This document shows, piece by piece, positions 37,369 to 50,555 of a stretch of 64,000 bases of DNA. The stretch spans positions 1 through 64,000 of IMG/VR virus record IMGVR_UViG_3300034198_023063; one strand, written 5' to 3'. The notes under the pieces are model-generated. The model had not been told where the DNA came from, made no database searches, and was given only the letters and a program-made list of their open reading frames with translations. Every line of letters begins with the position of its first letter. The first letter of the stretch is position 1. This stretch comes from a virus. The translations under genes and the position numbers were made by a program.

Positions 37369-38076
37369 TTACTTACTGGAAGACTTCTTTATACGATCTA
37401 TAAGCTCGAAGATCTTTGGCTTTGGAATATCTGAAAGAGCAGTTATTTCTTCAGCTTTTTCATATTTCTCTTTAGATAATTTCTTTTTTAAGTCATCTAG
37501 AGAAATATTTTTTTCTTTCATTAGGTTAGAAAGAACTGCTGTTGGTGAAAGAGGGTTTTCTGGAGTAAGTTCTTCAAAATTAACTTTAGCTCCAATTTCA
37601 TCTTGGCCAACGATATTAATCTTAAGGAAATTGCGGACGCATCGTACAAAGGCTCTATTTTCAGCTATTGCTGCTAAATAATTTCTAGCAAAGCTCTGTG
37701 TATTATCTGGAGAAGCGTCAGCGAGTGCTTCGAAGATGATTTCCTTCCCATTAGTTTCATAGTTACTGCTCCAACAAATTGTACAACCAGCTATAACATA
37801 TGACGGACTTGCTGATGGAATAGAGTACCCAACAGAGGTGAAACCTCTAATCTGGGCTAGCTCTTTGATGCCGCCTAGAAGGATAAGAAGATCCTTGTCC
37901 TCAAGCTTTGATATGTCAGTCTCTTGGGTTCTTTGCTTATTAGGAACAAGAAATTCTGGGCGAATCATTTTGCGCCAGTTTACAGATCCATCTTCATTGT
38001 AGACGTATGGAATTGGCGGATTCTCAAGAAGTCCATACTCATTTCTTGAAAATATTTTTGGAGGAATAGAACTCAT
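37369..38076 (-). CDS. Putative single-strand annealing protein (Rad52/Red-beta-like annealase)
   Basis: LLGGIKELAQIRG and AIAENRAFVRCVRNFLKI motifs resemble the annealase core; replication context. Start re-assigned to the ATG at 38076 (MSSIPP) based on the upstream promoter. Confidence 0.5.
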   Translation of the reverse strand: MSSIPPKIFSRNEYGLLENPPIPYVYNEDGSVNWRKMIRPEFLVPNKQRTQETDISKLEDKDLLILLGGIKELAQIRGFTSVGYSIPSASPSYVIAGCTICWSSNYETNGKEIIFEALADASPDNTQSFARNYLAAIAENRAFVRCVRNFLKINIVGQDEIGAKVNFEELTPENPLSPTAVLSNLMKEKNISLDDLKKKLSKEKYEKAEEITALSDIPKPKIFELIDRIKKSSSK

Positions 38077-38082
38077 CTTTGT

Positions 38083-38111
38083 AGTATGGATCAAATTTTT
38101 TCGTTAGTCAA
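38083..38111 (-). promoter_or_regulatory. Sigma70-type promoter TTGACT-N17-CATACT, 6 nt before the ATG (leaderless)
   Basis: -35 at 38111-38106, -10 at 38088-38083, ATG at 38076. Same geometry at three other loci. Confidence 0.7.
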
Positions 38112-39248
38112 GAAGTAAAAGCTGTCAGCCTCTTCTTTGAAAGAGTCGTCTAAGATTTGAGGCAAAGGGAAAGAGCCATTTCTAACATCTGGGTGATTAA
38201 TTCCAGCCCGACAATGCCATTTGCTAGCGAACGTTTTCCCGCTTTTAATTATTATTTTATTTGTTTTGAAGAAAACTTTTGATTTATCAAGCCCATCTAA
38301 AAATGATAAATCCATTTTATTTAGCTTGTTAATTATTTTATAATTTAAATATTTTAGTTTTTCAGGCTCTAGGTCTTTATCGTTAAGGGATGTTATAATG
38401 TCATAATTAAATTTAAAAGACTCCAGTAAGTCTATAAAAGATGGATCTGAACCTTTTTGAACTTTAAAATATATTTTTTTAATTGAATTTTTATAAGTTA
38501 GTAAAATATTTTTAGAAATATCTCTATTTGTTACTATGGAAGCGGGACCATTTTTTAATTGATCAGCAAGGTTTGCTTCTGAAAAAAATTCATCCATTCT
38601 AACTAATATTTCATTTTTTGAATCATTAGTTATTTTAAAACTGCAATCTGGAATTAAATCCATAGTTGGAAATGAATAAACTTTCCCAATCGAAAGGGTT
38701 CTATCAAAATCATAATTTTCTTCAGGCGATAGTTTTGAAAGTATCTTTACTGCGATTTCTTCTGGTCTAATATTATTTATGAAATTACCAATAGGATTAA
38801 AAAAGTTTTTTGATGCTTTATTCGTATTGATGATTTCATTTTCGCCAAGCAGCAAATTGTCAACAAGATAATCTGTTTTTAAAAATATTTGCGGAATTCC
38901 TTTTTCAGAACAGATGAGAGAATAAAATTTTGAAGAACCACAATAAAGCATTGAGTGGTTTAGCATATAGGCTTTTTCAGACAAACTGGTTTCTTTGTCT
39001 ATGCAAGTGCGGCTGAATGGTTGTTTTTTGTCGTCTACAAAATTAACTATCTCTATACTATTTTTAGATAAGAAAGGCTCAATTAATTGAACGACCCTAC
39101 TCCAGAATACATAATTTAAATTTTGATCATCGTTTTGAGTTTCCAGCACTATGTATTTAGTGAATGGTAGTGGGAAAAACTTCTGATAAATAAAACTATC
39201 ATTAGGCTCGATGCCTGTAGTAGAAGAAAAAGATTTAAGTAAATTCAT
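38091..39248 (-). CDS. Degenerate GT9 (heptosyltransferase-like) C-terminal-lobe protein (385 aa)
   Basis: YIVLETQ...NYVFWSRVVQLI...TSLSEKAYMLNHSMLYCGSSKFYSLICSEKGIPQIFL follows the GT9 C-lobe pattern, but the GxDSxxxH motif is altered. Confidence 0.5.
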   Translation of the reverse strand: MNLLKSFSSTTGIEPNDSFIYQKFFPLPFTKYIVLETQNDDQNLNYVFWSRVVQLIEPFLSKNSIEIVNFVDDKKQPFSRTCIDKETSLSEKAYMLNHSMLYCGSSKFYSLICSEKGIPQIFLKTDYLVDNLLLGENEIINTNKASKNFFNPIGNFINNIRPEEIAVKILSKLSPEENYDFDRTLSIGKVYSFPTMDLIPDCSFKITNDSKNEILVRMDEFFSEANLADQLKNGPASIVTNRDISKNILLTYKNSIKKIYFKVQKGSDPSFIDLLESFKFNYDIITSLNDKDLEPEKLKYLNYKIINKLNKMDLSFLDGLDKSKVFFKTNKIIIKSGKTFASKWHCRAGINHPDVRNGSFPLPQILDDSFKEEADSFYFLTNEKI

Positions 39249-41110
39249 GGAACTAAAACAGAATGAAAATTATTAATAGAAAAATTATCAAGGCAATAAA
39301 TCGACTCAAAGTTATTTCTAAGAAATTCTAAATTGCTTAAATCTTTGCCTTGAACGAGAACTTCATGGACGTCAGTATTACCAAAGAATATTTCAGCAGA
39401 ATCTTTATTTGTATGAACAAATATTTTTTTATTTGGTTGTTTTTTCTTTATAGAAGAAATGATTTTAGTTGATAAAAAAACATTCTCCTTGGAAGAATTT
39501 ATACTAACAAAAATTCTGTCTTTCTTTTCGCTGTCTATGAATAAATTATCTACAGTAGTATTTTTAAATTTTGCTACTTCTTGCCTAGCAACATCTCTAA
39601 AAAATCCAACAATAGCATCTCTGGGAACGCCAGAATTTATTTTTTCAATCCAGTGCGTTAGACCTTCGTCGTTATCTTTGACTATTCTGCCTAGAATTTT
39701 AAAATATAAAGTTTTAAGCCATAAAATATTATCTTCTATGTTATCTATATTTGCTTCTGGGTTAGCTTTTGAATTTTTACTGTCTTCTGGACAATATTCT
39801 GAAAAGGGTTGCGAATCTAAAAATTTTTCTATTTTTCCACCAATAAAAGAGGCGGAAAAATTTTCAATTACCCATTTCCTAGCGGTTCTTCCCATTTTTT
39901 GTTTTTGAGACGAATCCATTTTGAAAACAGTTTCTAGATTTTTAGCAATTGATTTGGGGCAAGTTGAAGCTTTAATAAACTCCGTCCCGAATTCTCTATA
40001 TTCACTCCAGTCTAGAGGAATTGATGCGGCTTCTGGACAGCACATTTCTTCTCCGCAGCTATAGTTTGTAACTAAAGTAATTAAGCCAGTAAGCTTCGCT
40101 TCTTGTATGGGTATTTCCTGACCGCCGCTAGTAAAGGGATGACAATAAACATCCATGCAATTGTATATTTCATTTAATTGCTTTTCATTAACGCCGCAAG
40201 CAACACCAGTGGTTATTTGAGAATTATTAGTCCTGCAAAATTTACAACTGACTTCAGGGCCAGAGAAATTTTTAATTTCATACGCTTTGCAATTTCTACA
40301 AACGTATGTAGTCAAAACATCCGACTCTGCAACTCCAGTTTCTTTGCATAGTTTATGAATATTCCAACCTTCTTGCCAATGAGTGTGTAGAAGTAATTTT
40401 GCTGAAATCTGAGGATTGACGTCTTTGAAAATTTTAAAACCCTGTAGCAGATTAGGAACGGATTTTCTTAATTGATTTCTAAAAACAAATCCTATAATAA
40501 AATCTTTTTTTGGTATGTTGTTATTTTTTCTAATTTCATCCTTTTCTTCTTGAGGCAGCGGTTTGAAGTCGGAAATATAAATAGCTCCATGAAGGGTTTT
40601 AACGTGAGATAAACCGATCCTGTGCATTTCTTTCTCAGCAAAACTAGACCATACCCAATAGTTTTTAATTTTAGGAGCTTGAGATATGGCGGATGGAAGA
40701 AGCGGCAATGAATCTAAAGTGGTCCATATTACAGAATTAATTTTATTAAACCAAGGCTTATCAATGCAATAATCTACACCCCAAAAATCTTGAACTCCTA
40801 TATAGAAATCTGGTTTTTCATTTTCTATTATTTTATCTATTTCAAATGCTCCATATGAATATAGTCTAGTTTTATCTGGAGAACTATTAAAATCTTGAAG
40901 TTCTGGGCCTTGGCTTGGTACTACGCCAACGCTTCTCCAAGGGGTTCTTTCTAGCTCTGGATGATTTTTTGTTACTCCTCCAGCCAAGCTAATTATATCA
41001 TACTTTCCAGTATTATATAAATAAGAAAGAATGGCCTTGGCATTTCTGCCAAAGCCAGTCTTACTAAGAGCAAAATCGCTATGAAAAACTATTTTCTTCT
41101 TTTTTACCAT
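39245..41110 (-). CDS. GT-B (GT4-like) glycosyltransferase with zinc-ribbon insert, DUF4214-like helical domain and GT9-N-like tail (621 aa)
   Basis: TGFGR, FRNQLRK, DVYCHPFTSGGQEIPIQEAKLTG motifs; CRNC...CKFC insert; LYFKILGR..DNDEGLTHW helical domain. Confidence 0.8.
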   Translation of the reverse strand: MVKKKKIVFHSDFALSKTGFGRNAKAILSYLYNTGKYDIISLAGGVTKNHPELERTPWRSVGVVPSQGPELQDFNSSPDKTRLYSYGAFEIDKIIENEKPDFYIGVQDFWGVDYCIDKPWFNKINSVIWTTLDSLPLLPSAISQAPKIKNYWVWSSFAEKEMHRIGLSHVKTLHGAIYISDFKPLPQEEKDEIRKNNNIPKKDFIIGFVFRNQLRKSVPNLLQGFKIFKDVNPQISAKLLLHTHWQEGWNIHKLCKETGVAESDVLTTYVCRNCKAYEIKNFSGPEVSCKFCRTNNSQITTGVACGVNEKQLNEIYNCMDVYCHPFTSGGQEIPIQEAKLTGLITLVTNYSCGEEMCCPEAASIPLDWSEYREFGTEFIKASTCPKSIAKNLETVFKMDSSQKQKMGRTARKWVIENFSASFIGGKIEKFLDSQPFSEYCPEDSKNSKANPEANIDNIEDNILWLKTLYFKILGRIVKDNDEGLTHWIEKINSGVPRDAIVGFFRDVARQEVAKFKNTTVDNLFIDSEKKDRIFVSINSSKENVFLSTKIISSIKKKQPNKKIFVHTNKDSAEIFFGNTDVHEVLVQGKDLSNLEFLRNNFESIYCLDNFSINNFHSVLVP

Positions 41111-41679
41111 AGATCATCGTCCGAAGACTCCTGCTTGGGTGCCTCTTCCTTTTTTGGAGCGGCCTGAGCGGGAGCAGCGGTCGATTTATTATCTTGTTCC
41201 TTCATTGCCTTTTCAAAGATTTTTGCCAAAGACAACATAAAATAAGATTCAAGCTTGATAGCTTCGCCAAAAGTAAAACCGATTAGGAATGAAGTTTTAT
41301 CTTGAGCATTTTCTCGGCTTTCCTTAGATACAGAAAGTGAGTAGCCAACTTGAGAAATCTGATTTGGATTATCCTTGCTGGCGCGATTGTATGGAGAAAA
41401 CTTAATTCGAGTTACTTGTTTAGGAGAATCGTGAAAGCCGTTGAATTCAGCATTTCTACGCATGGCTGAAATAATGTCTCCAATCTCAGTAGAACTGATT
41501 TTGACAGAGGCAGACATTTTTGGATTTTGAGCGTTTCCAGCGAAAGAGCCACGCTTCTTGGCTTCATCCCAACTAGATTGCTTGATTAGGTTAATATAGA
41601 CGCAGTCGTCCTTGGCTGAAAAGTTGAACGAACATCCAGTCCCAGTGTTTTTTGGATTCGGTTTATAAAATTGAATCAT
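41104..41679 (-). CDS. Putative single-stranded DNA-binding protein, Whirly/PC4-like fold, acidic C-terminal tail (191 aa)
   Basis: Two beta4-alpha repeats (KISSTEIGDII; GFTFGEAIKL) and an FHDS motif. Flexible A/P/K/E linker ends in DDDLW. Directly downstream of dnaE. Confidence 0.65.
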   Translation of the reverse strand: MIQFYKPNPKNTGTGCSFNFSAKDDCVYINLIKQSSWDEAKKRGSFAGNAQNPKMSASVKISSTEIGDIISAMRRNAEFNGFHDSPKQVTRIKFSPYNRASKDNPNQISQVGYSLSVSKESRENAQDKTSFLIGFTFGEAIKLESYFMLSLAKIFEKAMKEQDNKSTAAPAQAAPKKEEAPKQESSDDDLW

Positions 41680-41686
41680 ACGATAT

Positions 41687-41715
41687 ATGATGCTCTTTTT
41701 ACTCTAGATTGTCAA
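41687..41715 (-). promoter_or_regulatory. Sigma70-type promoter TTGACA-N17-CATCAT, 7 nt before the ATG (leaderless)
   Basis: -35 at 41715-41710, -10 at 41692-41687, ATG at 41679. Confidence 0.75.
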
Positions 41716-44266
41716 GATTTTTTTCTTTAAGCTCAGACAATTTTGTATATATTTTTAGTGTTTGAACGCCGAAAGTTTCTGCGAAAACACAGTCTTGCTT
41801 TTTGGTTCCTTTAACGATAACTATGTCTTCAGTTTCGGGCAGATAATCGTTATTTGCCGACTTGTTAAAGTCGATTTTATCATTAAAGGTAAGGATGGGA
41901 ATTGATCCATACTCGTCAGACACAATCATCTTAAATGTTCTGGTTTTCTTTTCGTTTTTGGATACCCATTGGGAACTTTCTTCAACTTTGCCAACTATAA
42001 ATACAGTAGAGTTATCTTGTTTATTTGGTAAGTCTTTCAATGTGACTAGATTAGGCATCTTCTGAGAGAATATCTCAAATAAAGATTTGTCGTAGCTGTA
42101 TCCAAGAAGTTTAGTTTCATAAAACCAATTAGCAAAGCTTTCTGATTTATTATTTTGCTGGTAGATCTTTAAATAAGGATCATATTTCTTTTTGATTGTC
42201 TGAAATCTAGATTCTTTAATTAAAAGCTTGCCATTTTCATTCTTTGTCTCTGATAGCTTTTTAAGAACTTTAATTAAATCAAACTCAAATTCTGAACCAA
42301 ATTGAATGGCTAACACTTTTTCCTTATCAGTAAGAATATTCCATAATTGAGCCTCTAGCACAACTCTGCTTCTTGAAGATGAGAATCCATCTAACGCACC
42401 GGCTTGAATTAAAGCTGAAACAACTCCAATAGATAGCCCGACTTCTTTTGCTGCCTCAAAAACTTCGAACTTGTTTGAATGATCTGATTTAAAGTTTTTA
42501 AGCTTTTCCATCGTTTTTTCAGAAATACCCTTGATCGAAGACAATCCGAATCTAATGTCTTCTCCTTGAATTGAAAAATCTGTTTCTGATTTTAAGATAT
42601 GCGGGCCAAGAAGCTTTATGCCGAAATGCCTAAGTTCTTTCTGTATTTTTGAAATTTCTTCTAGAGGAGCAGGTTCATGCTTAGTCATCTCAAGCAGAGC
42701 GAGGAAAAAATGTTTTGGATACTTGAATTTTAAGTAAATAGTGCAAGCAGCCAATGCGGCATAACTCATTGAATGAGATTTATTGAAAGAGTAGTTTGCG
42801 GAGTTTTCTAAAATTCTCCACAGAATATCTCCAATCTCGGGAGCTAATTTATTTTCCTTAATTTTTTCAGAAATCTTTTCTTGCCACTTCTTTACTTCTT
42901 CTACCTTCTTTTTGCCAACAATTCGACGCAAAACTTCAGCTTCATCAAGAGTGAAGCCAATCTTGTTGGACATTTTCATTAACTGCTCTTGGTAAAGAGC
43001 TACGCCGCCACTTGAGCTAAGAACAGAATCAAAGAAAGGATGAATTGGTTCGTAAACATTGTTGTTAGTAAAATTAGCGTATTGATCTACGAACTCCAAG
43101 GCTCCGGGGCGAGCCAATGCAAGTACACCACTTAATTCTTCTAGATTTTTCGGTTTAACTTTTTTACAAACCTTGAAATTTGTATCAGCTTCAATTTGAA
43201 AAATTCCATGAGGAGTTTTTAAATCGGCTAGTTGTTGATAAATGAACGGATCGTTAAAATCTATATCGTTAACGTTTATTCCAACTAACTTGCAGACTCT
43301 ATCGACTATTGAAACGCTTCGCAAACCTAACAAGTCAAGTTTAACATTGAACGTGGATGCCCAGTTCATGTCATAGCTAGAGACCTGTTCCTTGTCGCTA
43401 GTAAGTTCAGTAGGGCAGCTTTTATCCATCGGGTAGTACGAAAGCATCATGCCAGATGCATGAACGCTTTTATTTTTGATTAAACTTCTTAATTTAAGAG
43501 CGGTATTGTAAACCCTTGGATTTTCATTACACCATTTCTTGAACTCTTCCACTTCGTCATAAGCGTCTTTCAGATCCATGACTTGGCCGAAAGTCTTCGG
43601 AATTAAAGAGCTTACGTCATTCATTTCTGTTTCTGTCTTTTCTTCTATTATTTTACCACATTCTTTGATTAGTAGTTTGCCACTCAAAGTGGTTAATGTT
43701 AAAATTTTAGAAGTCCTTCCAGAGAATAACTGCTCTAGGAATTTAATTACTTTATAGCGATTATAGTAGCAAATATCAATGTCAACATCGCACATTAAAG
43801 ATCCATCAAGATAAGTAATGCCATCGACTACTTGCTTCTTGGCTCGAATCTTAGAGATGAAACGCTCAAAGAATAGTTCGTATTTGATTGGATCTACCTT
43901 GGTAACCCCCAACAAATAAAGAATAAGGCTGCCAGCAGCAGAGCCGCGTCCAAGACCAACAGGAATGGAGTTTTCGTTGCAATAATTAACAACAGTCCAT
44001 ACTAATAGAACATAATCTAGAAATCCAAGCTCTTTAATGGTTTCCAGTTCATACTTTACTCTTTCTGAATATTTAGAGTATTCTTCTTTCGGAATTTTTA
44101 ATTTCTTAAAATTGCTTCTGCAAACTTGAATCAAAAAGTCATAGTTAGAAGACTCTTCTTTTAGGCCGTATTGAGTCTTGAGCCGGTTCTCTATATTAAA
44201 TTCTGGCAAACGAACGCCATACAATGGAAGCTTTATATTGTCAAACGCAGATTCAAATTTATTCAT
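41699..44266 (-). CDS. dnaE: DNA polymerase III alpha catalytic core lacking the PHP domain (855 aa)
   Basis: GRGSAAGSL, FERFIS, catalytic DVDID, KLDLLGL, YQEQLM, YSFNKSH, IRFGLSSIKG, and a C-terminal OB fold. Confidence 0.95.
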   Translation of the reverse strand: MNKFESAFDNIKLPLYGVRLPEFNIENRLKTQYGLKEESSNYDFLIQVCRSNFKKLKIPKEEYSKYSERVKYELETIKELGFLDYVLLVWTVVNYCNENSIPVGLGRGSAAGSLILYLLGVTKVDPIKYELFFERFISKIRAKKQVVDGITYLDGSLMCDVDIDICYYNRYKVIKFLEQLFSGRTSKILTLTTLSGKLLIKECGKIIEEKTETEMNDVSSLIPKTFGQVMDLKDAYDEVEEFKKWCNENPRVYNTALKLRSLIKNKSVHASGMMLSYYPMDKSCPTELTSDKEQVSSYDMNWASTFNVKLDLLGLRSVSIVDRVCKLVGINVNDIDFNDPFIYQQLADLKTPHGIFQIEADTNFKVCKKVKPKNLEELSGVLALARPGALEFVDQYANFTNNNVYEPIHPFFDSVLSSSGGVALYQEQLMKMSNKIGFTLDEAEVLRRIVGKKKVEEVKKWQEKISEKIKENKLAPEIGDILWRILENSANYSFNKSHSMSYAALAACTIYLKFKYPKHFFLALLEMTKHEPAPLEEISKIQKELRHFGIKLLGPHILKSETDFSIQGEDIRFGLSSIKGISEKTMEKLKNFKSDHSNKFEVFEAAKEVGLSIGVVSALIQAGALDGFSSSRSRVVLEAQLWNILTDKEKVLAIQFGSEFEFDLIKVLKKLSETKNENGKLLIKESRFQTIKKKYDPYLKIYQQNNKSESFANWFYETKLLGYSYDKSLFEIFSQKMPNLVTLKDLPNKQDNSTVFIVGKVEESSQWVSKNEKKTRTFKMIVSDEYGSIPILTFNDKIDFNKSANNDYLPETEDIVIVKGTKKQDCVFAETFGVQTLKIYTKLSELKEKNLDNLE

Positions 44267-44901
44267 ATCTCGACTTGAAATTTAATTTTATTCCACACTT
44301 TTAGATTTAACTCCAAATCTACAATAGCATTGTGGAGATTTTCGTAATCATGCTCTATGTTATAATCTTTTCCGAGAGAAGTTAAATTAGTTTTAATGCC
44401 TTTTCTATAAGTATGAAGCAACTTGTATTGATATTCTACAAGGGACTCTTTTGGCATTTTAGGAATTCCATATTTGATTCCTTTAGCCAAGCAATTAGTA
44501 TCAAGGATTTTATTAACTAGATGGCTAGCTCGCATTCCTTTGAGTAAATACATCTCTTTTATTAAATACAAGTCGAAGCCAAGAATATTATGACCAACAA
44601 TATAGTCAGAACACTCAAGCCAATCCCTAACAGTACTAAACACATCATCAAATTTCTTGCCAGTTGTTCTAATAAGTTCTTCTGGATATCTTGTGATTCT
44701 TCTCGCATCTTCAGATATTTTAAGGTTTGTGTCCCATTTAACAAGAAAATCTCGCTCGTCGACTTTTTTTCCGCCAACAGTGCTTAGCATCGCTATTTGC
44801 CAAGGTAGATTTTGACAGAAATTAAGGCAAAGATTAAGTGTTTCGCAGTCGATAAAAACAAGTTTTTTAGACTTGTCAAATCTTAATAGTTCATTTTCCA
44901 T
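44263..44901 (-). CDS. DEDDh 3'-5' exonuclease (Pol III epsilon/PolC exonuclease-like; 212 aa)
   Basis: FIDCET, GHNILGFDL, ILDT and LHNAIVDL motifs; lies between the PHP and polymerase genes. Confidence 0.9.
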   Translation of the reverse strand: MENELLRFDKSKKLVFIDCETLNLCLNFCQNLPWQIAMLSTVGGKKVDERDFLVKWDTNLKISEDARRITRYPEELIRTTGKKFDDVFSTVRDWLECSDYIVGHNILGFDLYLIKEMYLLKGMRASHLVNKILDTNCLAKGIKYGIPKMPKESLVEYQYKLLHTYRKGIKTNLTSLGKDYNIEHDYENLHNAIVDLELNLKVWNKIKFQVEI

Positions 44902-45658
44902 ATTTTTCCTTGAATGATTCTGCGCAAAATTCGTTAGACGAAAAGTGGTCTAAGTTTGGTTTATTTAAAGTAGTTCTATTAGAAATACATCTGAAAGTTA
45001 AATACGTTAGAAAGTCTTCTTTGTTTTCGTAATACACAGATTGACTTTGCACTATAGAAGACTTGTCGAGAATTGTATCGTTAACCTTACGACTCAAAAT
45101 ACCATCGAAAGGCAAATTATTATCTTCAACAAAATAAATCAAATCGCAAAAACTAAAATCAGGAACGCAAATGCTATAAGTTAAGTTATTCTTAAAAATA
45201 TAGGAGTCGTAAAATGGTATTGCCATTAGAAGATTATCTTTATTCCATAGCTCTTTTAGAACTTTACAATCTATTCTTGGGTAATAATAAAATCCAGTAG
45301 TGCTGGCTGTTGTGGATATTTTAATTAGATCCTTATACCCTTCAGCATTTTTGATAAAGATTATTACTTTGTGCTCTTTATCTTTTGACTCAGTGGTCTT
45401 ATTATTTATATCATCACATATCGTGAGCCTAAGCCCAAACCTTAAATCAATCTTCGATTCTTCGCAAGACTTGTACGCCTCTAGAAAACCAGAAATAGAA
45501 TCTTCAACCAAATATAGTTTGTTTAATTTAAGTTTTAAAGCAATATCTATTATTGAGCTTGGTTCATGCTCTGAGCTAGACCCAGCCTTAGAAAGCGTCA
45601 AAATAGATTTCCCAAGACTATAATGGGATTTGAAAAGAGGAATGGCTGAGTAGTCCAT
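44891..45658 (-). CDS. Stand-alone PHP domain of Pol III alpha, probably catalytically degenerate (255 aa)
   Basis: LFKSHYSLGKSIL, LYLVEDSISGF, FGLRL, KNAEGYKDLIKIST and FYYYPRID match the DnaE N-terminal PHP pattern. Confidence 0.85.
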   Translation of the reverse strand: MDYSAIPLFKSHYSLGKSILTLSKAGSSSEHEPSSIIDIALKLKLNKLYLVEDSISGFLEAYKSCEESKIDLRFGLRLTICDDINNKTTESKDKEHKVIIFIKNAEGYKDLIKISTTASTTGFYYYPRIDCKVLKELWNKDNLLMAIPFYDSYIFKNNLTYSICVPDFSFCDLIYFVEDNNLPFDGILSRKVNDTILDKSSIVQSQSVYYENKEDFLTYLTFRCISNRTTLNKPNLDHFSSNEFCAESFKEKYGK

Positions 45659-45691: not shown

Positions 45692-46654
45692 TCAAAAAGT
45701 TGGATCATCTTTGCGCCAAAATGGGCAACCTTTATAAGATGTTTTATTTATCAAAACAATATTCGAATCATTAAAAAGATCGTCTCTGTTAAAAGATGAT
45801 TTAATAAATTTATCATTCTTATCGTAACCCATATAATAAGTAGCTGGAAGTCTGGATGGACAAATCCATTTTCCCTCTACGTCACTTCCACACATCCATT
45901 TCTTTTTTGGAGTACTCGCAGCTAAATTTTGAACAGCTCTTTTTTCATCAAAAGATGATATGTATCCAGCGACGTAACTAAGATAAGCCTTGAAACCCTC
46001 TAATTGCTCTACGGTTGGTTTTGGGGCTTCTTGAATTGGCTGTTTTTTAAATTTAAGAAAAATAAATGAGACATCTGGAATATGGCCTTTAGTTTTAAAT
46101 ACAGCTAAAGAATACATCAAGTTTTGTAGGTTAAAGTCAATCTCTTCTTTAGAAAACTTACCTTTGCTTGATTTGTAGTCGTAAATTTTATAGTTTGTAT
46201 CGCTAAATTTTGCAAGCTTGTCAATAAATCCATTGATAATATAATCTTCCTCTTCAAGTTTAAACTCTGATTCAGCTTCAACAAGCAAAGCTCCACTACA
46301 GAAAAAGTCGCTTTGAAGACCTGTTTGGATCATATTATAAATAAGATCTAAATTTTCTTCGTCATTTACTTTGAGCTTTTTAGCGTGTTTTAGAATAAGT
46401 CTATGGATAGATGGATTTTTTATAACTCCAGCTTTGCCAGAGCATAGATCTTCAAAATATTTTTTATGCCTATCAGTAAGGAGTAGCTCAAATATTAAAT
46501 GGCAAATTGTCCCCCTTGAAGCTCCAGCGTTAGAAATATCTGGAAGTTTAAGAATATATTTAGTATAGTAAAGCCAGCTACACCCTTCGGCGGTTTTTAT
46601 TTTACTAGCGCTTAGTTTTACTTTTTCTTTATTAATTAAAGTGTCTTGTGCCAT
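45692..46654 (-). CDS. PD-(D/E)XK exonuclease, Cas4/RecB/AddB-like, with four Cys (320 aa)
   Basis: LSASKI..C, GTICH, E, GFIDKL, IYDYKSSK and QNLMY motifs; additional Cys in WMC, WICP and GCP. Confidence 0.85.
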   Translation of the reverse strand: MAQDTLINKEKVKLSASKIKTAEGCSWLYYTKYILKLPDISNAGASRGTICHLIFELLLTDRHKKYFEDLCSGKAGVIKNPSIHRLILKHAKKLKVNDEENLDLIYNMIQTGLQSDFFCSGALLVEAESEFKLEEEDYIINGFIDKLAKFSDTNYKIYDYKSSKGKFSKEEIDFNLQNLMYSLAVFKTKGHIPDVSFIFLKFKKQPIQEAPKPTVEQLEGFKAYLSYVAGYISSFDEKRAVQNLAASTPKKKWMCGSDVEGKWICPSRLPATYYMGYDKNDKFIKSSFNRDDLFNDSNIVLINKTSYKGCPFWRKDDPTF

Positions 46655-47568
46655 TGTAATATCTTTGCTTTGTCTAGCAGGTTTAAGTCTCCAAAGTCTT
46701 TCCCGCCAACAGGAAGATTGATTGAAATTTGATTTGTGTCAAAATAATTCAGTAATTTATTTTTTACAGCTTCCGCTGCTTCATTGCCAGCGTTGTTTGC
46801 TTGAGAGTCGTTATTAAAAGCTACAATTATTCTTTTAGGATTGATGGCGATTAAACTATAAATTATTTTAACAGAAAGATTGAGACCAAATGTAACTATG
46901 CAATTTTTGATTCCATTTTCTCTCAAAGCGAGCATGTCGCCAATGCTTTCCACAAGAATTACGGATTTGCTTTCTTTGATATCTTCTAAATTTACCTTTA
47001 AAGGGTAAACCCATTCTTTTTTATCTCCTATGTGTTTCCATTTTGGCCTTCCGTCTAAAGACAAAGGACCTACGTCTCTACCTGAAAAACCGATAATATT
47101 ATCTTTGTTATCAAATACTGGGAAGGTGTATCTATTATACATTTTACCAGTAGTAGCAAGGCCGCATTGAAATGGAAGTAAAGTAGACGCAGAAATGCCT
47201 CTATTTAACCAGTAAGAATCGTCTTTGGCCAATTTTAATAATAAAGATTTATCAAAATATTGGATTTGAGAAGTTGTTATCTTGGGTTTTTCTATCTCTT
47301 TAGTATCATAATTAACTCCTTTGGAAGAGATCCAGCTTTTAGCTTCGGTTATGTTTTTAAGCTTTAAAGTTATTTTAACTAGCTCCTCCAAGGACCCGCT
47401 TTTGCTTTCCTTGAAATCAACCCATTGACCAGAGTTTTTCCAGATGCGAAGTACGTTATCGTTATCTGAGTCTCTATACAATGGCTTTGCTCTATATTCT
47501 CTTCCGTTATCGTTAAGAACATAGCCTAAATCCTGTAGGATTTGCCTAACAGACTCGCAGTCGTTCAT
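46636..47568 (-). CDS. dnaG: DnaG-like TOPRIM primase (310 aa)
   Basis: YWLNRGI, RYTFPVFD..GFSGR, PKW, VILVESIGDMLAL, AFNND..AG, KDFGDL. Adjacent to dnaB. Confidence 0.85.
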   Translation of the reverse strand: MNDCESVRQILQDLGYVLNDNGREYRAKPLYRDSDNDNVLRIWKNSGQWVDFKESKSGSLEELVKITLKLKNITEAKSWISSKGVNYDTKEIEKPKITTSQIQYFDKSLLLKLAKDDSYWLNRGISASTLLPFQCGLATTGKMYNRYTFPVFDNKDNIIGFSGRDVGPLSLDGRPKWKHIGDKKEWVYPLKVNLEDIKESKSVILVESIGDMLALRENGIKNCIVTFGLNLSVKIIYSLIAINPKRIIVAFNNDSQANNAGNEAAEAVKNKLLNYFDTNQISINLPVGGKDFGDLNLLDKAKILQWHKTL

Positions 47569-49028
47569 AGAAGTTCGCCATCTCCAGAATCGTCTAATTC
47601 GGGTCTTAAAGATCTAGCTTCAACAATATCTTCAAGAGTTCCCTTTTCTTCAACATTAAAATTTGATATATTAAAGCTGATATAGTTAGGAATATACTTA
47701 GTTCTTTTGCCTTCTTTAATTCTAACTAAATCATGGTGACCGGCAGAATCTTTGCCTTGAAAGCGTGTAGCTAAAGGAATTAATTTGTGAGATCCAAATT
47801 CTTCTCCATCGTCAGCGATTTCTTCTACGGTTTTTCTTCTAAAAATACCTACGAACGAAGCAAACCACTGTAAACGATCTGATTGAGAAATTGCACTACT
47901 ATCATCAACGCCATTTTCTGCGCTTCTATTTAATTGGCAAGCTGTAAGAATTGGAATATTTAATTCAGAAGCAAGTTCTTTCAAAGCGTTCACCTTATCG
48001 CCAATCAACTGATACTCTTGTTTGTTTTTATCCATTTCTCCAGTCAGTTTTATATAGTCATAAACGATAACGCATGGATTTCCTCTGCCAACTTTCGCAA
48101 AGTACCATCGGCGAATAATTGAAATAACCTCTTCAATTGGTTTGCCAGAGACCTGAACGTGATCTACTTGATTCTGTATTTTAATTATATCAGATTTCTT
48201 TTCTTGAAAAAGATTGTATAGATTTGTGTTTTTCTTCCAATTTCCAGTTTCTAGATACCAAACAGGAATCTGCGTGATTGAGGAGGCTATTCTGAACTTC
48301 ATATCTAGAGTAGACATTTCAGTATCAAGAACTAAGGCTCTGCAACCTTTATTAATTGTTGTGGTTTTTATTGCTAGATCATTTAAGATAGTTGATTTGC
48401 CATGCTTTGGGCGACTAACCCAAGCGTATAAGTTTCCGGGCCTTACGCCACCATAAAGGCGATTAAAGTTTTGATATGGAGTCTCTAGTCCATTTTCTTT
48501 GATTGGATTATTGCCTCTTTCCTCAATGATCTCTATAACATTAGAAGTTATATCTTCTGGCTTATCATTTTCGTTAGCATAAAGAGATATTTTTTTATTA
48601 TAGATCTGGTCTGATTCGGTGATAATTGACTCAAGATCTTTTTCCGCACAACTATGCGCGAATTTCTTGATGTTTTCGCCGGTCTCTTCCAGCTCTCTTC
48701 TTACTCTAAATTTAACTAATTCTTTTGCAGCTTCAATCAATCCATTCTTTGTTGTCGGGATTAAGCATATGCTGTTGACATAATCAAAAACATTGATGCT
48801 TTGATCTTTAAATGTAATGCCTAGGTTTTGCGCTTTTTGAGCTACAAGAACTTTATCTACAGTTGAGCCATTTTCAAAGCAGTCTTTGAAGACACAAAAA
48901 ATAGTATAATGAACGTCATTGACAAAATCATTTTCATTAATAAAAGAACGAACATCGCCAAATGAATCGTGATGCCTAATTAAGCCTGAAAGAATGTATT
49001 TTTCTAACTGCAAAGAATAAATTGCCAT
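47565..49028 (-). CDS. dnaB: DnaB-like replicative helicase (487 aa)
   Basis: Walker A SRPKHGKS, LDTEMS, YDYIKL, CQLNR, and an N-terminal DnaB helical domain. Confidence 0.93.
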   Translation of the reverse strand: MAIYSLQLEKYILSGLIRHHDSFGDVRSFINENDFVNDVHYTIFCVFKDCFENGSTVDKVLVAQKAQNLGITFKDQSINVFDYVNSICLIPTTKNGLIEAAKELVKFRVRRELEETGENIKKFAHSCAEKDLESIITESDQIYNKKISLYANENDKPEDITSNVIEIIEERGNNPIKENGLETPYQNFNRLYGGVRPGNLYAWVSRPKHGKSTILNDLAIKTTTINKGCRALVLDTEMSTLDMKFRIASSITQIPVWYLETGNWKKNTNLYNLFQEKKSDIIKIQNQVDHVQVSGKPIEEVISIIRRWYFAKVGRGNPCVIVYDYIKLTGEMDKNKQEYQLIGDKVNALKELASELNIPILTACQLNRSAENGVDDSSAISQSDRLQWFASFVGIFRRKTVEEIADDGEEFGSHKLIPLATRFQGKDSAGHHDLVRIKEGKRTKYIPNYISFNISNFNVEEKGTLEDIVEARSLRPELDDSGDGELL

Positions 49029-49029
49029 A

Positions 49030-49446
49030 TTATAATATTATATTAAATTTCTCAAGGAAAAACTTTTCATTTAAAGAATCAACTTCATTGTCGTAGATCT
49101 CAACAAGAATAAATTTATTCAATGTGAGCCAGTTTTCCTTGGCGACATCTCGCTTAATTGATTTTAAATAATTTAAACGAGAATCGTTATGAAAAAACTT
49201 ATTGTAAGCAGAGTGCTGTGGGCCGTGGACCTCAACAGCAATCTTGCGAGTTGCGTTCAAAATGTCAACTTTTAATCGACTTCCAAACACAGGAAACTCC
49301 TCGTAGACAATATGGTTTTGCCAATATTTTCTAAGGAACTGCTTGGTTTTAAATTGTATTTTAGATCTGGAGGCGGCGTCCCAGTCTATAGTATATTGAG
49401 ATACATTTTTGCTTACAACCTTGCCAAAAGCATTATAGAGCTTCAT
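49030..49446 (-). CDS. Vsr/DUF559-like endonuclease (138 aa)
   Basis: EEFPV...LKVDI...IAVEVHGPQH...RDVAKENW...LVEI pattern. Confidence 0.7.
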   Translation of the reverse strand: MKLYNAFGKVVSKNVSQYTIDWDAASRSKIQFKTKQFLRKYWQNHIVYEEFPVFGSRLKVDILNATRKIAVEVHGPQHSAYNKFFHNDSRLNYLKSIKRDVAKENWLTLNKFILVEIYDNEVDSLNEKFFLEKFNIIL

Positions 49447-50555
49447 TTCTTTAGGACGCTAATAAATTTATCAAACAAATATTTAGTGATGTTTGGGTTT
49501 TCCTCAAGGAAATTTTTGAGATTGGCTTCTCCTTGATGTTGTTTTGGAAACTCTAAATTATTATCAGCAAGCTCTTTGACAAGCTCGTCAGTTATAGTTA
49601 TCCAAGCTCCTTTTGCATGAGCGAACTCCCAAGCAAGCAATTGGTCCACAATCTCATATTCAATCCAAACGCTAGAGCCGTTTTTGCGCCCATATTTAAT
49701 TGGATACCGAACTTCTCTGCCAGATTTCTCATTTGGAGTTTTTTTGAAAACTATTTTGCACCAATGCCCGACAGGATTACCATCTTGTTTGGCGTTTGCA
49801 TAAATAAAGTCTTTGTTCCAACGCTGCTGGAATTCTAGGATCCAGTCAGAATAATGAAGGGCTGCGTTTCCGCCGCTGGCATTAGTAACTTTTGGATCAC
49901 CCTTCTCGTAAGGATTAATCTTAATTGAAGATCTGACTTGAGAAATTATGAAACAAATGTGACCTCTGGAAGAAAAAGCGGCGGCCATCTTACGAAGTAG
50001 GTCCGCAGTTAGGAGCGCGGCTCCAGCAGTCTTGTTAGCTTCAGTGGATGACTTTGCTAAATCGTTTCTTGGTACTAAAGCGTCAAGGCTATCAAGAATG
50101 AAGAAATATAAATTATTGTCATCGTTATCTTTGATTAGCCTTCGCATCATGTCGATGACAAATTCATAATCATTAGTTGGAATTACTTTCCAACGGTCTG
50201 GATCTGTGCTTACTCCAGATCTTTCAATGATTGCTTCACTAAGTCTGCCTTCAGATTTTATATAAATAATACATCCTTTTTCTGGATGAAGATCTTGAAA
50301 GCTTTTAGCGAAAGCCAGAGCGTTGCTTGTTTTGCCGCCTTCTGTGACACCGGAAGATCTTACGATACCGGGATGGATTCCTCCGCCCATTTCAATATCT
50401 AAAGTTAAACTGCCGCTGCTAACTACATAATCAATATTATTATCAAAAGCATAATGATGTTCTTTATTATCTTTTAAGATAGAATCTAAAACACGAAGTT
50501 TGTTAGATGATGATTCTTCTTGTATTTCGGAGGTTTCTTTTTTGGGTCGTGCCAT
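49443..50555 (-). CDS. recA: RecA/UvsX-like recombinase (370 aa)
   Basis: SSGSLTLDIEMGGG, Walker A GVTEGGKTS, ILDSLDALVP, ISQVR, SGGNAALHYS. Confidence 0.9.
   Translation of the reverse strand: MARPKKETSEIQEESSSNKLRVLDSILKDNKEHHYAFDNNIDYVVSSGSLTLDIEMGGGIHPGIVRSSGVTEGGKTSNALAFAKSFQDLHPEKGCIIYIKSEGRLSEAIIERSGVSTDPDRWKVIPTNDYEFVIDMMRRLIKDNDDNNLYFFILDSLDALVPRNDLAKSSTEANKTAGAALLTADLLRKMAAAFSSRGHICFIISQVRSSIKINPYEKGDPKVTNASGGNAALHYSDWILEFQQRWNKDFIYANAKQDGNPVGHWCKIVFKKTPNEKSGREVRYPIKYGRKNGSSVWIEYEIVDQLLAWEFAHAKGAWITITDELVKELADNNLEFPKQHQGEANLKNFLEENPNITKYLFDKFISVLKK

What the first reader, a model, noticed from the sequence alone, without database searches (positions are those of the whole stretch)
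41104..41679. Whirly-like ssDNA-binding protein with a bacterial SSB-style acidic tail
Seen: FYK start; VKISSTEIGDII; FHDSP; RIKFSP; GYSLSVSK; FLIGFTFGEAIKLESYF; then a flexible linker ending DDDLW. Established: the plant organellar Whirly domain has the pattern YK...LSxTExGxL...FFHDP...LKxEP...GxFxNLSV...IPVTxAEFAVL (two beta4-alpha repeats, related to PC4); bacterial SSBs end in an acidic-aromatic tail (DDDIPF); phage T5 uses a PC4-like SSB. Inference: this phage uses a two-repeat Whirly-type protein as its replicative SSB, which bears on the origin of plant Whirly and kinetoplastid MRP proteins.
Basis: partly seen in the sequence, partly recalled or inferred. Interest (0 to 1): 0.8.

Follow-up and report, generated by a model that had tools for sequence, protein, structure and literature searches.

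The report
Phage Whirly-family SSB with acidic tail

Summary

- **Fold:** the AlphaFold2 model (pLDDT 88.5) is a two-repeat beta4-alpha domain followed by a disordered tail. It matches potato PBF-2 p24 (Z 16.2), StWhy2 (15.9) and trypanosome MRP1/2 (15.3), far above PUR-alpha (8.1). No OB fold appears.
- **Sequence homology:** a family profile hits p24/WHY2/WHY1 (E 1.8e-4 to 4.5e-3). A relative 52% identical passes Pfam Whirly's cut-off (25.1 vs 23 bits). The window's own protein does not.
- **Tetramer:** a Whirly-style homotetramer is predicted (0.92 vs 0.00 control).
- **Tail:** the acidic-aromatic tip is family-wide (142 of 182 members).
- **Context:** the gene is single-copy and lies directly after a split DnaE replicase. 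It heads a conserved cassette ending in a probable Rad52/Redbeta-like annealase.
- **No rival SSB:** no OB-fold, gp32-type or gp2.5-type SSB was detected in two complete 172-175 kb relatives.

ssDNA binding and a replisome role are inferred, not shown. The tip may be Whirly's own autoregulatory Glu-Trp motif.

Whirly folds in phages are already known (ChmC), and this scan has noted the same kind of protein on other DNA many times. I therefore class it as a new variant of a known kind.

The parts
41104..41679 (-). Whirly-family SSB gene (191 aa, P0001)
   Evidence: ORF. Conserved family. One copy per genome in five records.
41455..41679 (-). Whirly repeat 1 (residues 1-75): strands 2-6, 14-21, 26-33, 56-62 plus a small 36-45 hairpin, then helix 63-74. 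Contains the family-wide FYKPNxKxTG N-terminus and the LSxTE-like motif (E65 invariant).
   Evidence: AF2 secondary structure. Invariant columns. HMM alignment to Whirly.
41179..41445 (-). Whirly repeat 2 (residues 79-167): four strands, then long helix 137-167. Contains FHD (H83), GY (G112) and GEA (E139). Helices 63-75 and 136-163 form the predicted tetramer core.
41122..41178 (-). Variable low-complexity linker (residues 168-186; A/P/K/E/Q-rich; pLDDT below 50 from residue 172)
41107..41121 (-). Conserved acidic-aromatic C-terminal tip DDDLW (residues 187-191)
   Evidence: Of 182 full-length members, 142 end in W (97) or F (45), and 142 combine an aromatic in the last 3 residues with at least 2 acidic residues in the last 8. 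It is the only such tip in the window.
41687..41715 (-). Promoter-like site TTGACA-17-CATCAT inside the 3' end of dnaE, ending 7 nt before the ATG, with no Shine-Dalgarno sequence
   Evidence: This is a consensus match only.
41699..44266 (-). DnaE-type polymerase core (no PHP domain), immediately upstream
   Evidence: Pfam DNA_pol3_alpha 1.8e-55, finger domain and HHH_6. phrog_405.
44263..45658 (-). Separate DnaQ-like exonuclease (44263-44901) and PHP-domain (44891-45658) genes of the split replicase
   Evidence: Pfam RNase_T 1.7e-11 and PHP 4.2e-12.
45692..50555 (-). Rest of the replication/recombination operon: PD-(D/E)XK exonuclease, DnaG-type primase, DnaB helicase, HNH-like 138-aa ORF and UvsX/RecA-like recombinase
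39245..41110 (-). GT4-type glycosyltransferase (621 aa). Its ATG overlaps the end of the Whirly gene. It is the first conserved downstream cassette partner.
   Evidence: Pfam Glycos_transf_1 1.1e-6. phrog_2170 4.7e-13. Synteny.
38091..39248 (-). 385-aa protein with no family match; second cassette partner
   Evidence: synteny.
37369..38094 (-). Probable Rad52/Redbeta-like single-strand annealing protein (u241). The true start is probably the ATG at 38076. The N-domain is Rad52-like and the C-terminal three-helix domain is Redbeta-CTD-like.
   Evidence: AF2 pLDDT 81. VIA-align: RAD52 Z 7.8, Mgm101 6.7, Sak 6.5, Redbeta NTD 5.9; residues 181-241 match the Redbeta CTD solved with the SSB C-peptide (8tfu), Z 6.8, rmsd 2.3 A over 58 residues. 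Foldseek top hits are RAD52, E 2.7e-3. Atlas gives leads only.

Best explanation
[quoted passage not shown] It serves as the phage's own SSB.

Proposed mechanism:
- Four subunits join through their two helices into a whirligig tetramer.
- The basic beta-sheet blades bind ssDNA non-specifically.
- A flexible linker presents the acidic DDDLW tip. When no DNA is bound, the tip may fold back on the DNA-binding surface, as in plant Whirly, E. coli SSB, T7 gp2.5 and T4 gp32. When DNA is bound, the tip docks phage partners.
- The best partner candidate is the Redbeta-CTD-like domain of the co-encoded Rad52-like annealase. Replisome proteins are a further possibility.

The protein would thus be an ssDNA hub for DnaE-based replication and for recombination-dependent replication (annealase, PD-(D/E)XK exonuclease, UvsX-like recombinase), taking the place of an OB-fold SSB.

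Shown here: the fold, sequence homology to Whirly, tail conservation, gene context, and the absence of detectable canonical SSBs. Predicted: the tetramer. Inferred: ssDNA binding, tail function, partner identity and the replisome role.
For: - **Fold.** The AF2 model has pLDDT 88.5 and pTM 0.78, with beta4-alpha-beta4-alpha topology and a disordered 172-191. The Foldseek PDB hits shown above E 1e-3 (23 in total) are all plant WHY1/2/3, StWhy2, PBF-2 or MRP1/2, at E about 1e-5 and probability 1.00. VIA-align gives PBF-2 Z 16.2 (rmsd 3.0 A, 139 aligned), StWhy2 Z 15.9 (2.5 A, 135) and MRP1/2 Z 15.3 (3.2 A, 133). The next hit is PUR-alpha at 8.1.
- **Sequence.** Profile A2 hits p24 at 1.8e-4, AtWHY2 at 5.9e-4, StWhy2 at 6.6e-4 and AtWHY1 at 4.5e-3. 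The family-invariant E65, H83, G112 and E139 fall on Whirly's TE, FHD, G-Y/F and AEF residues. Nine of 64 members hit PF08536. P0060, 52% identical to this protein, scores 25.1 bits against the 23-bit cut-off. The Atlas places a viral 'Whirly domain' cluster at 0.94.
- **Tetramer.** Complex prediction with four copies of residues 1-170 scored 0.92, against a best of three controls of 0.00. That mark was reached by 20 of 30 proteins solved as pairs of one chain and by 1 of 23 solved as single chains. The runs agree in at least 84% of their contacts, and the partner pLDDT is at least 89. The interface is helices 63-75 and 136-163. Whirly tetramers are solved, so the pass may reflect likeness to them.
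- **Tail.** The tip is conserved behind a variable linker. 142 of 182 members have an acidic+aromatic tip. The core has a median net charge of +6.
- **Context.** The gene is directly downstream of DnaE in a co-directional operon with exonuclease, PHP, PD-(D/E)XK nuclease, primase, DnaB and UvsX-like genes. The order is identical in 80 viral loci. A Whirly-GT-u385-annealase cassette is kept in relatives at 31-44% identity.
- **Annealase fold.**
- **No alternative SSB.** PF00436, PF08804 and PF10991 give no hit at E<=1 in the own record or in four relatives, two of them 100% complete. There is one Whirly copy in each.
Against: - There is no biochemical evidence. Whirly-fold proteins can prefer RNA (MRP1/2; phage ChmC, PMC11077065).
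- This protein itself misses Pfam Whirly and lacks the KGKAAL hallmark.
- In divergent relatives DnaE is not always adjacent, while the annealase cassette always is. This points to recombination as much as replication.
- Absence of other SSBs rests on three Pfam models in six-frame searches. A very divergent OB fold or use of the host SSB is not excluded.
- The annealase assignment rests on middling scores (Z below 8; Foldseek E about 3e-3).
- Plant Whirlies have their own C-terminal Glu-Trp autoregulatory motif, so the tip need not be a partner-docking device.
- All synteny comes from what may be one broad phage lineage, so it is partly inherited rather than independent.
Confidence: 0.7

Rival explanations
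1. It is a recombination-dedicated ssDNA-binding partner of the Rad52-like annealase and PD-(D/E)XK exonuclease, not the replisome SSB. Replication forks would use the host SSB or an undetected phage SSB.
For: The only neighbours kept across relatives at 31-44% identity are GT621, u385 and the annealase. In L088 the annealase follows directly, and DnaE is absent from the flank in L086-L088, L093 and L094. The annealase C-domain resembles the Redbeta CTD that binds an SSB tail. Earlier scan notes, which are unchecked, report a Whirly protein beside an ordinary SSB in other phages.
Against: In this lineage no other SSB type was detected in complete genomes. The gene is transcriptionally coupled to DnaE in 80 loci. 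Phage SSBs such as T4 gp32 normally serve both replication and recombination, so the two readings overlap.
Confidence: 0.2
2. It is an RNA-binding protein like trypanosome MRP1/2 or the jumbo-phage ChmC, acting on phage mRNAs rather than on DNA.
For: MRP1/2 is as close structurally (Z 15.3) as plant Whirlies. ChmC is a phage Whirly-fold tetramer that prefers RNA and has a disordered C-terminus.
Against: Sequence similarity is to the ssDNA-binding plant Whirlies, not to MRP. The gene lies in a replication/recombination operon. ChmC has beta3-alpha repeats and an N/G-rich tail, unlike the short acidic-aromatic tip here.
Confidence: 0.05
3. It is a DNA-coating or nucleoid-architectural or regulatory protein, as proposed for plant WHIRLY1. 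Alternatively it is a decoy whose tail titrates host SSB-interacting enzymes.
For: Plant Whirlies compact nucleoids and act in transcription. The tip resembles SSB-Ct motifs in outline.
Against: There is no specific support. The tip ends in LW rather than the bacterial IPF in this lineage. Conserved operon placement fits core DNA metabolism.
Confidence: 0.05

Closest known systems
Plant organellar Whirly proteins (StWhy1 = PBF-2 p24, StWhy2, AtWHY1/2/3; Pfam PF08536; PDB 1l3a, 3n1h, 4koo, 4kop, 4koq)
   Same: Both have a two-repeat beta4-alpha fold (Z about 16). Sequence homology is detectable (profile E 1.8e-4; a 52%-identical relative passes the Pfam cut-off). The TE, FHD, G-Y/F and (A/G)E motif residues are shared. 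A helix-core homotetramer is predicted. Both have an acidic-Trp element at the end of a variable C-terminal region.
   Different: The phage protein has no transit peptide. The KGKAAL motif is replaced by YK-PNxKxTG with a longer first hairpin. It has one long C-terminal helix. It is encoded by a phage in a DnaE/annealase operon. This protein itself is below Pfam's threshold. The family is described as plant-specific in reviews (PMC9070903).
Bacterial SSB (PF00436) and phage SSBs T7 gp2.5 and T4 gp32
   Same: The architecture is a DNA-binding core, a disordered linker and an acidic tip ending in an aromatic residue. It forms a tetramer like E. coli SSB. It occupies the SSB position in a replication/recombination operon.
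   Different: The core is not an OB fold and does not match PF00436, PF08804 or PF10991. The tip is DDDLW rather than DDDIPF.
ChmC of Chimalliviridae jumbo phages (PMC11077065)
   Same: It is a phage-encoded Whirly-fold homotetramer with a disordered C-terminus, which shows the fold is not new to phages.
   Different: ChmC has beta3-alpha repeats, prefers RNA, has an N/G- and S/D/E-rich condensate-forming tail, and acts in mRNA handling at the phage nucleus. No sequence link to it was seen here.
Trypanosoma MRP1/MRP2 (PDB 2gia, 2gje)
   Same: It has the same fold (Z 15.3) and a whirligig tetramer.
   Different: It is an RNA matchmaker that forms a heterotetramer, and it shows no sequence-level match here.
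Phage T5 PC4-like SSB, YdbC and PUR-alpha (PC4-like superfamily, PMC7549692)
   Same: It uses the same beta4-alpha building block and binds single-stranded nucleic acid.
   Different: T5/PC4/YdbC are single-repeat 'type II' dimers. PUR-alpha is much less similar (Z 8.1).

Membership tests
Whirly (PF08536) | Tandem beta-beta-beta-beta-alpha repeats forming the Whirly domain | tested here: met
   AF2 topology. Z 16.2 and 15.9 to PBF-2 and StWhy2. Foldseek E about 1e-5.
Whirly (PF08536) | Protein itself scores above Pfam's gathering cut-off (23 bits) | tested here: not met
   No PF08536 hit for P0001 even at E<=10. Six-frame search of the own genome and four relatives gave none.
Whirly (PF08536) | Sequence homology through the family (transitive or profile) | tested here: met
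   P0060 (52% identical) scores 25.1 bits and P0155 scores 22.7 bits. Nine of 64 members hit. Profile A2 against p24, WHY2 and WHY1 gives E 1.8e-4 to 4.5e-3.
Whirly (PF08536) | KGKAAL motif of higher-plant Whirlies | tested here: not met
   The N-terminus is FYKPNPKNTGTGCSF. Only YK is kept, and this holds family-wide. Algal and liverwort Whirly-like proteins also lack the motif (PMC9070903).
Whirly (PF08536) | Homotetramer built on the helices | tested here: met
   This is a prediction only: score 0.92 against a control of 0.00, with the interface at 63-75 and 136-163. The pass may reflect likeness to solved Whirly tetramers.
Whirly (PF08536) | Conserved C-terminal acidic-Trp (Glu271-Trp272 of StWHIRLY1) autoregulatory element | tested here: inconclusive
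   An acidic-Trp tip is present and conserved. Homology to the plant motif could not be tested, and the Lys188 partner could not be mapped.
Whirly (PF08536) | Sequence-non-specific ssDNA binding | not testable with these tools
   Only indirect evidence is available: a basic core with median net charge +6 and the operon context.
Bacterial-type SSB (PF00436) | OB-fold DNA-binding domain | tested here: not met
   There is no Pfam hit, and the fold searches return Whirly rather than OB.
Bacterial-type SSB (PF00436) | Disordered linker plus acidic tip with a terminal aromatic residue (SSB-Ct) | tested here: met
   Residues 172-191 have pLDDT below 50. The DDDLW tip is conserved. It is analogous to DDDIPF, not identical.
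PC4-like type II (PC4, T5 SSB, YdbC) | Single beta4-alpha unit that dimerises | tested here: not met
   There are two repeats in one chain. This matches the type I definition in PMC7549692.
ChmC (Chimalliviridae) | beta3-alpha repeats, RNA preference and an N/G-rich disordered tail | tested here: inconclusive
   The repeats here have four main strands, and the tail is short and acidic. No ChmC structure or sequence was compared directly.

The most novel reading that the evidence does not exclude
The Whirly family is not plant-specific in origin. Plant and algal organellar Whirlies (and possibly kinetoplastid MRPs) would descend from an SSB of large tailed phages like this one, acquired together with the other phage-derived organellar replication proteins (Twinkle, RPOT). 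The acidic-Trp C-terminal tip would then be an ancestral autoregulatory and partner-docking device shared by the phage and plant proteins.
Probability: 0.2. Interest if true: 0.85.

Novelty: new variant of a known kind. Interest (0 to 1): 0.62.

Why it matters
Reviews call Whirly proteins plant-specific. A large, sequence-linked sister family in uncultured phages changes that picture: at least 795 clusters at 50% identity and 489 IMG/VR contigs.

The phage protein sits in the SSB slot of a DnaE replisome and recombination module and carries an SSB-like linker and tip. If it binds ssDNA, it would be a non-OB replicative or recombinational SSB built on a different fold, and a concrete candidate for the source of the plant organellar proteins.

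It also offers a simple system to test whether the acidic-aromatic tail of Whirlies acts in autoinhibition, in docking, or in both. The candidate partner is a co-encoded annealase whose C-terminal domain resembles the Redbeta domain that binds the SSB tail.

The interest of this single instance is tempered on three counts. The Whirly fold is already documented in phages (ChmC). Databases already auto-label some phage proteins as 'Whirly'. This scan has already flagged the same kind of protein in many other genomes.

Tried and rejected
**Searches with no useful result**
- Direct Pfam and PHROG scans of the protein gave only low-complexity tail noise: Ribosomal_60s at E 0.037 and phrog_748 at E 0.088.
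- Single-sequence phmmer against the PDB gave one spurious TCR-alpha hit at E 0.25.
- Profile A1 ranked cofilin slightly above StWhy2 (E 0.048 vs 0.11). The cofilin hits vanished with the broader profile A2, so I treat them as chance.
- tblastn of P0001, P0204 and P0172 against 50,697 cultured-phage records found nothing.
- No PHROG family matched any of the 64 members.
- The search for related loci failed with A2 because it has no conserved stretch. With the single distant members P0186 and P0204 it found no confirmed relatives.
- No Pfam or PHROG family matched u241 or u385.
- Pfam scans of the variable upstream genes in divergent loci showed only a ClpB-like AAA+ protein and unknowns.
- The DnaE tblastn gave only hits below 32% identity, so the phage lineage could not be placed.

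**Tools and papers not available**
- I tried to obtain plant Whirly sequences from a tool for hhalign and a tree. One call was rejected for its parameter and the relaxed search returned none. No profile-profile test or phylogeny was done.
- The Whirly-ssDNA structure paper PMC2910959 is not held, so DNA-contact residues were not mapped.

**Expression**
- No RNA holder is listed among the sequencing runs.

**Readings rejected**
- OB-fold SSB, PC4 type II dimer and PUR-alpha membership.
Full report
**1. Observation**

Window 41104-41679 holds a 191-aa ORF on the minus strand, with an ATG at 41679 and a stop at 41104-41106. The gene is real and conserved:
- 58 clusters at 90% identity;
- 795 representatives at 50% identity with E<=1e-3;
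- 489 IMG/VR contigs with a confirmed relative.

All aligned sequences start at the same Met. The invariant columns are M1, K6, G13, Q34, W37, G44, F46, K60, E65, H83, Y97, G112 and E139. No source names any member; all are 'hypothetical protein'.

**2. What it is**

Direct Pfam, PHROG and PDB sequence searches with the single protein are blank.

*Structure.* With a 33-sequence alignment, AlphaFold2 gives a confident model (pLDDT 88.5, pTM 0.78). Four strands and helix 63-74 are followed by four strands and long helix 137-167. Residues 172-191 are disordered.
- The Foldseek PDB hits shown above E 1e-3 (23 in total) are all plant Whirlies (WHY1/2/3, StWhy2, PBF-2) or trypanosome MRP1/2. PUR-alpha follows.
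- An all-against-representatives VIA-align search gives PBF-2 Z 16.2 (rmsd 3.0 A, 139 residues), StWhy2 Z 15.9 (2.5 A, 135) and MRP1/2 Z 15.3.
- There is then a large drop to PUR-alpha at 8.1 and SsgA at 7.8. No OB fold appears.

*Sequence.* The relationship is also visible at sequence level.
- The first family profile reached StWhy2 only at E 0.11.
- A broader 64-member profile hits p24 at 1.8e-4, AtWHY2 at 5.9e-4, StWhy2 at 6.6e-4 and AtWHY1 at 4.5e-3, over about 100 aligned residues.
- These alignments place the family-invariant E65, H83, G112 and E139 on Whirly's TE, FHD, G-Y/F and AEF positions.
- Nine of 64 members hit Pfam Whirly on their own.
- P0060, 52% identical to the window's protein, scores 25.1 bits against the curated 23-bit cut-off, and P0155 scores 22.7.
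- The window's protein and its near relatives remain below detection.
- The higher-plant KGKAAL hallmark is replaced by FYK-PNxKxTG-xACSF. Algal Whirly-like proteins also lack that motif (PMC9070903).

I therefore call it a divergent phage branch of the Whirly family, not a canonical plant-type Whirly. The ESM Atlas agrees as a lead: a mostly viral cluster auto-named 'Whirly ... domain-containing' scores 0.94, with PF08536 on 13% of its members.

*Quaternary structure.* Four copies of residues 1-170 were predicted to assemble with score 0.92, against a best of three controls of 0.00.
- That mark was reached by 20 of 30 proteins solved as pairs of one chain, and by 1 of 23 solved as single chains.
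- The runs agree in at least 84% of their contacts, and the partner pLDDT is at least 89.
- The contacts lie in helices 63-75 and 136-163. This is the helical core described for Whirly whirligigs (PMC3245945).
- Because Whirly tetramers are solved, the pass shows likeness. It does not prove assembly.

**3. The tail**

After the last helix comes a variable A/P/K/E/Q-rich linker with indels, then a conserved tip.
- Of 182 full-length family members, 97 end in W and 45 in F.
- 142 combine an aromatic residue in the last three positions with at least two acidic residues in the last eight. Examples are ...EEDLW, ...EDIF and ...EDNIPF.
- The folded core is basic, with a median net charge of +6.
- In the window this is the only one of 41 non-nested ORFs with such a tip.

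A second reading emerged, however. Plant Whirlies carry a conserved Glu271-Trp272 near their C-terminus. It contacts the Whirly domain, and mutating the Trp raises ssDNA binding (PMC9070903, citing Desveaux 2005). The phage acidic-Trp tip may therefore be an ancestral Whirly feature. The two readings do not exclude each other, since the acidic tails of E. coli SSB, gp2.5 and gp32 both self-inhibit and recruit partners (established knowledge).

**4. Context**

The gene closes a co-directional minus-strand operon. In order it contains:
- a UvsX/RecA-like recombinase;
- an HNH-like ORF;
- DnaB;
- a DnaG-type primase;
- a PD-(D/E)XK exonuclease;
- a PHP protein;
- a DnaQ-like exonuclease;
- the DnaE core;
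- this gene.

A TTGACA-17-CATCAT promoter-like site lies in the end of dnaE, 7 nt before the ATG. Downstream follow a GT4-type glycosyltransferase (its ATG overlaps the end of this gene), a 385-aa unknown and a 241-aa unknown.

All 80 best viral loci show the identical order. That is one lineage, so the order is inherited rather than independent evidence. Sixteen relatives at 31-44% identity lie on MAG contigs binned to unrelated phyla, and these are probably mis-binned phage contigs. They keep the block Whirly-GT-u385-u241 even where DnaE is displaced or absent. In L088 the 241-aa gene follows directly.

I folded the 241-aa protein (pLDDT 81).
- Its N-domain best matches RAD52 (Z 7.8), Mgm101 (6.7), phage 80alpha Sak (6.5) and the Redbeta NTD (5.9).
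- Residues 181-241 match the Redbeta C-terminal domain solved with the SSB C-terminal peptide (8tfu: Z 6.8, rmsd 2.3 A, 58 of 70 residues) and with lambda Exo (6m9k: Z 6.6).
- Foldseek also ranks RAD52 first, at E 2.7e-3.
- These scores are middling but coherent. The protein is probably a two-domain Redbeta-style annealase, and its C-domain is the most concrete candidate receptor for the DDDLW tip.

**5. Is there another SSB?**

Six-frame searches with PF00436 (OB SSB), PF08804 (gp32) and PF10991 (Enc34/gp2.5-type) found nothing at E<=1. The searches covered the window's 80.7-kb record (about 53% complete) and four relatives. Two of those are rated 100% complete, at 174.6 and 171.9 kb. Each record has exactly one copy of the Whirly gene. 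A very divergent OB fold, or reliance on the host SSB, is not excluded.

**6. Mechanism and rivals**

*Best reading (0.7).* The protein is a tetrameric Whirly-type ssDNA-binding protein that serves as the phage's SSB hub for DnaE replication and for annealase/UvsX-driven recombination. The tip acts as an autoinhibitory and/or docking element.

*Rivals.*
- A recombination-only partner of the annealase (0.2). This is favoured by the conserved cassette, but it overlaps with the main reading.
- An RNA binder like MRP or ChmC (0.05).
- A nucleoid-architectural or regulatory protein, or a decoy (0.05).

ssDNA binding, tail function and partner identity are all inferred.

**7. Prior knowledge and novelty**

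- The PC4-like review lists Whirly, MRP, PUR, T5 PC4-like and others, but no phage Whirly-type SSB (PMC7549692).
- ChmC of chimalliviruses is a phage Whirly-fold tetramer, but an RNA-binding one with beta3-alpha repeats (PMC11077065).
- sPC4/Whirly-fold sensor domains are noted in defence systems (PMC12065111).
- BFVD contains other uncharacterised phage and giant-virus proteins with this fold. One is auto-named 'Whirly transcription factor'.
- Full-text searches for Whirly combined with phage replication terms found nothing further.
- This scan has already noted phage Whirly-type SSBs many times: 241 notes in at least 189 genomes. Several follow-ups reached the same reading. Some report coexistence with an ordinary SSB, which I did not find in this lineage.

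I class it as a new variant of a known kind, with interest 0.62.

**8. Limits**

- Plant Whirly sequences could not be obtained from a tool, so no hhalign or phylogeny was run.
- The Whirly-DNA complex paper was not held.
- No RNA run was listed.

Noticed in passing
window 37369-41679 (-); L081-L096: A four-gene cassette (Whirly gene, 621-aa GT4-type glycosyltransferase with a DUF4214-like part, 385-aa unknown, 241-aa Rad52-like protein) is kept in relatives down to 31% identity. The glycosyltransferase (44-55% identical) is better conserved than the Whirly protein. Why a glycosyltransferase sits between an SSB and an annealase is unexplained; one possibility is replication-coupled DNA or protein glycosylation.
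   Followed up: partly
window 41699-45658 (-): The C-family replicase is split into three adjacent genes: a PHP protein, a DnaQ-like exonuclease and a DnaE core without PHP. The arrangement is conserved in all related loci.
   Followed up: partly
window 41687-41715 (-): There is a near-consensus -35 box (TTGACA), a 17-nt spacer and a CATCAT -10-like box ending 7 nt before the ATG, with no Shine-Dalgarno sequence. This suggests a leaderless or very short-leader mRNA.
   Followed up: partly
window 41032-41057 (-): A terminator-like hairpin (11 pairs, 6 G-C, then a T-rich run) lies about 50 nt after the Whirly stop, inside the first 30 codons of the glycosyltransferase gene. It may be an attenuator separating high SSB expression from downstream genes. 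Its conservation was not checked.
   Followed up: no
L081-L096 (GTDB MAG contigs): Contigs carrying this phage cassette are binned into MAGs of unrelated phyla, including Pseudomonadales, Nitrospinales, Promethearchaeota, Flavobacteriaceae, Woesebacteria and Neomarinimicrobiota. They are most likely viral contigs mis-binned into MAGs, so these labels are not host evidence.
   Followed up: no
L084:1125-3593, L085:4191-6593: In two divergent relatives a ClpB/ClpA-like double AAA+ ATPase (about 800 aa) is inserted between dnaE and the Whirly gene.
   Followed up: no
BFVD hits: Small Whirly-like folds (about 120-140 aa) occur as several paralogues in Bacillus phages (W.Ph. Gp208, Gp212, Gp230; BPS10C), in Acinetobacter phage ME3, and in giant viruses (Pithovirus, Tupanvirus, Moumouvirus, Pandoravirus). 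All are uncharacterised.
   Followed up: no
window 2-37108 (+): There is a run of very large plus-strand ORFs (2068, 1168, 1090, 3265, 1032 and 1166 aa). Those scanned have almost no Pfam or PHROG matches. The window GC content is 32.5%. The lineage has no close cultured relative; its DnaE is at most 32% identical to any phage record.
   Followed up: partly
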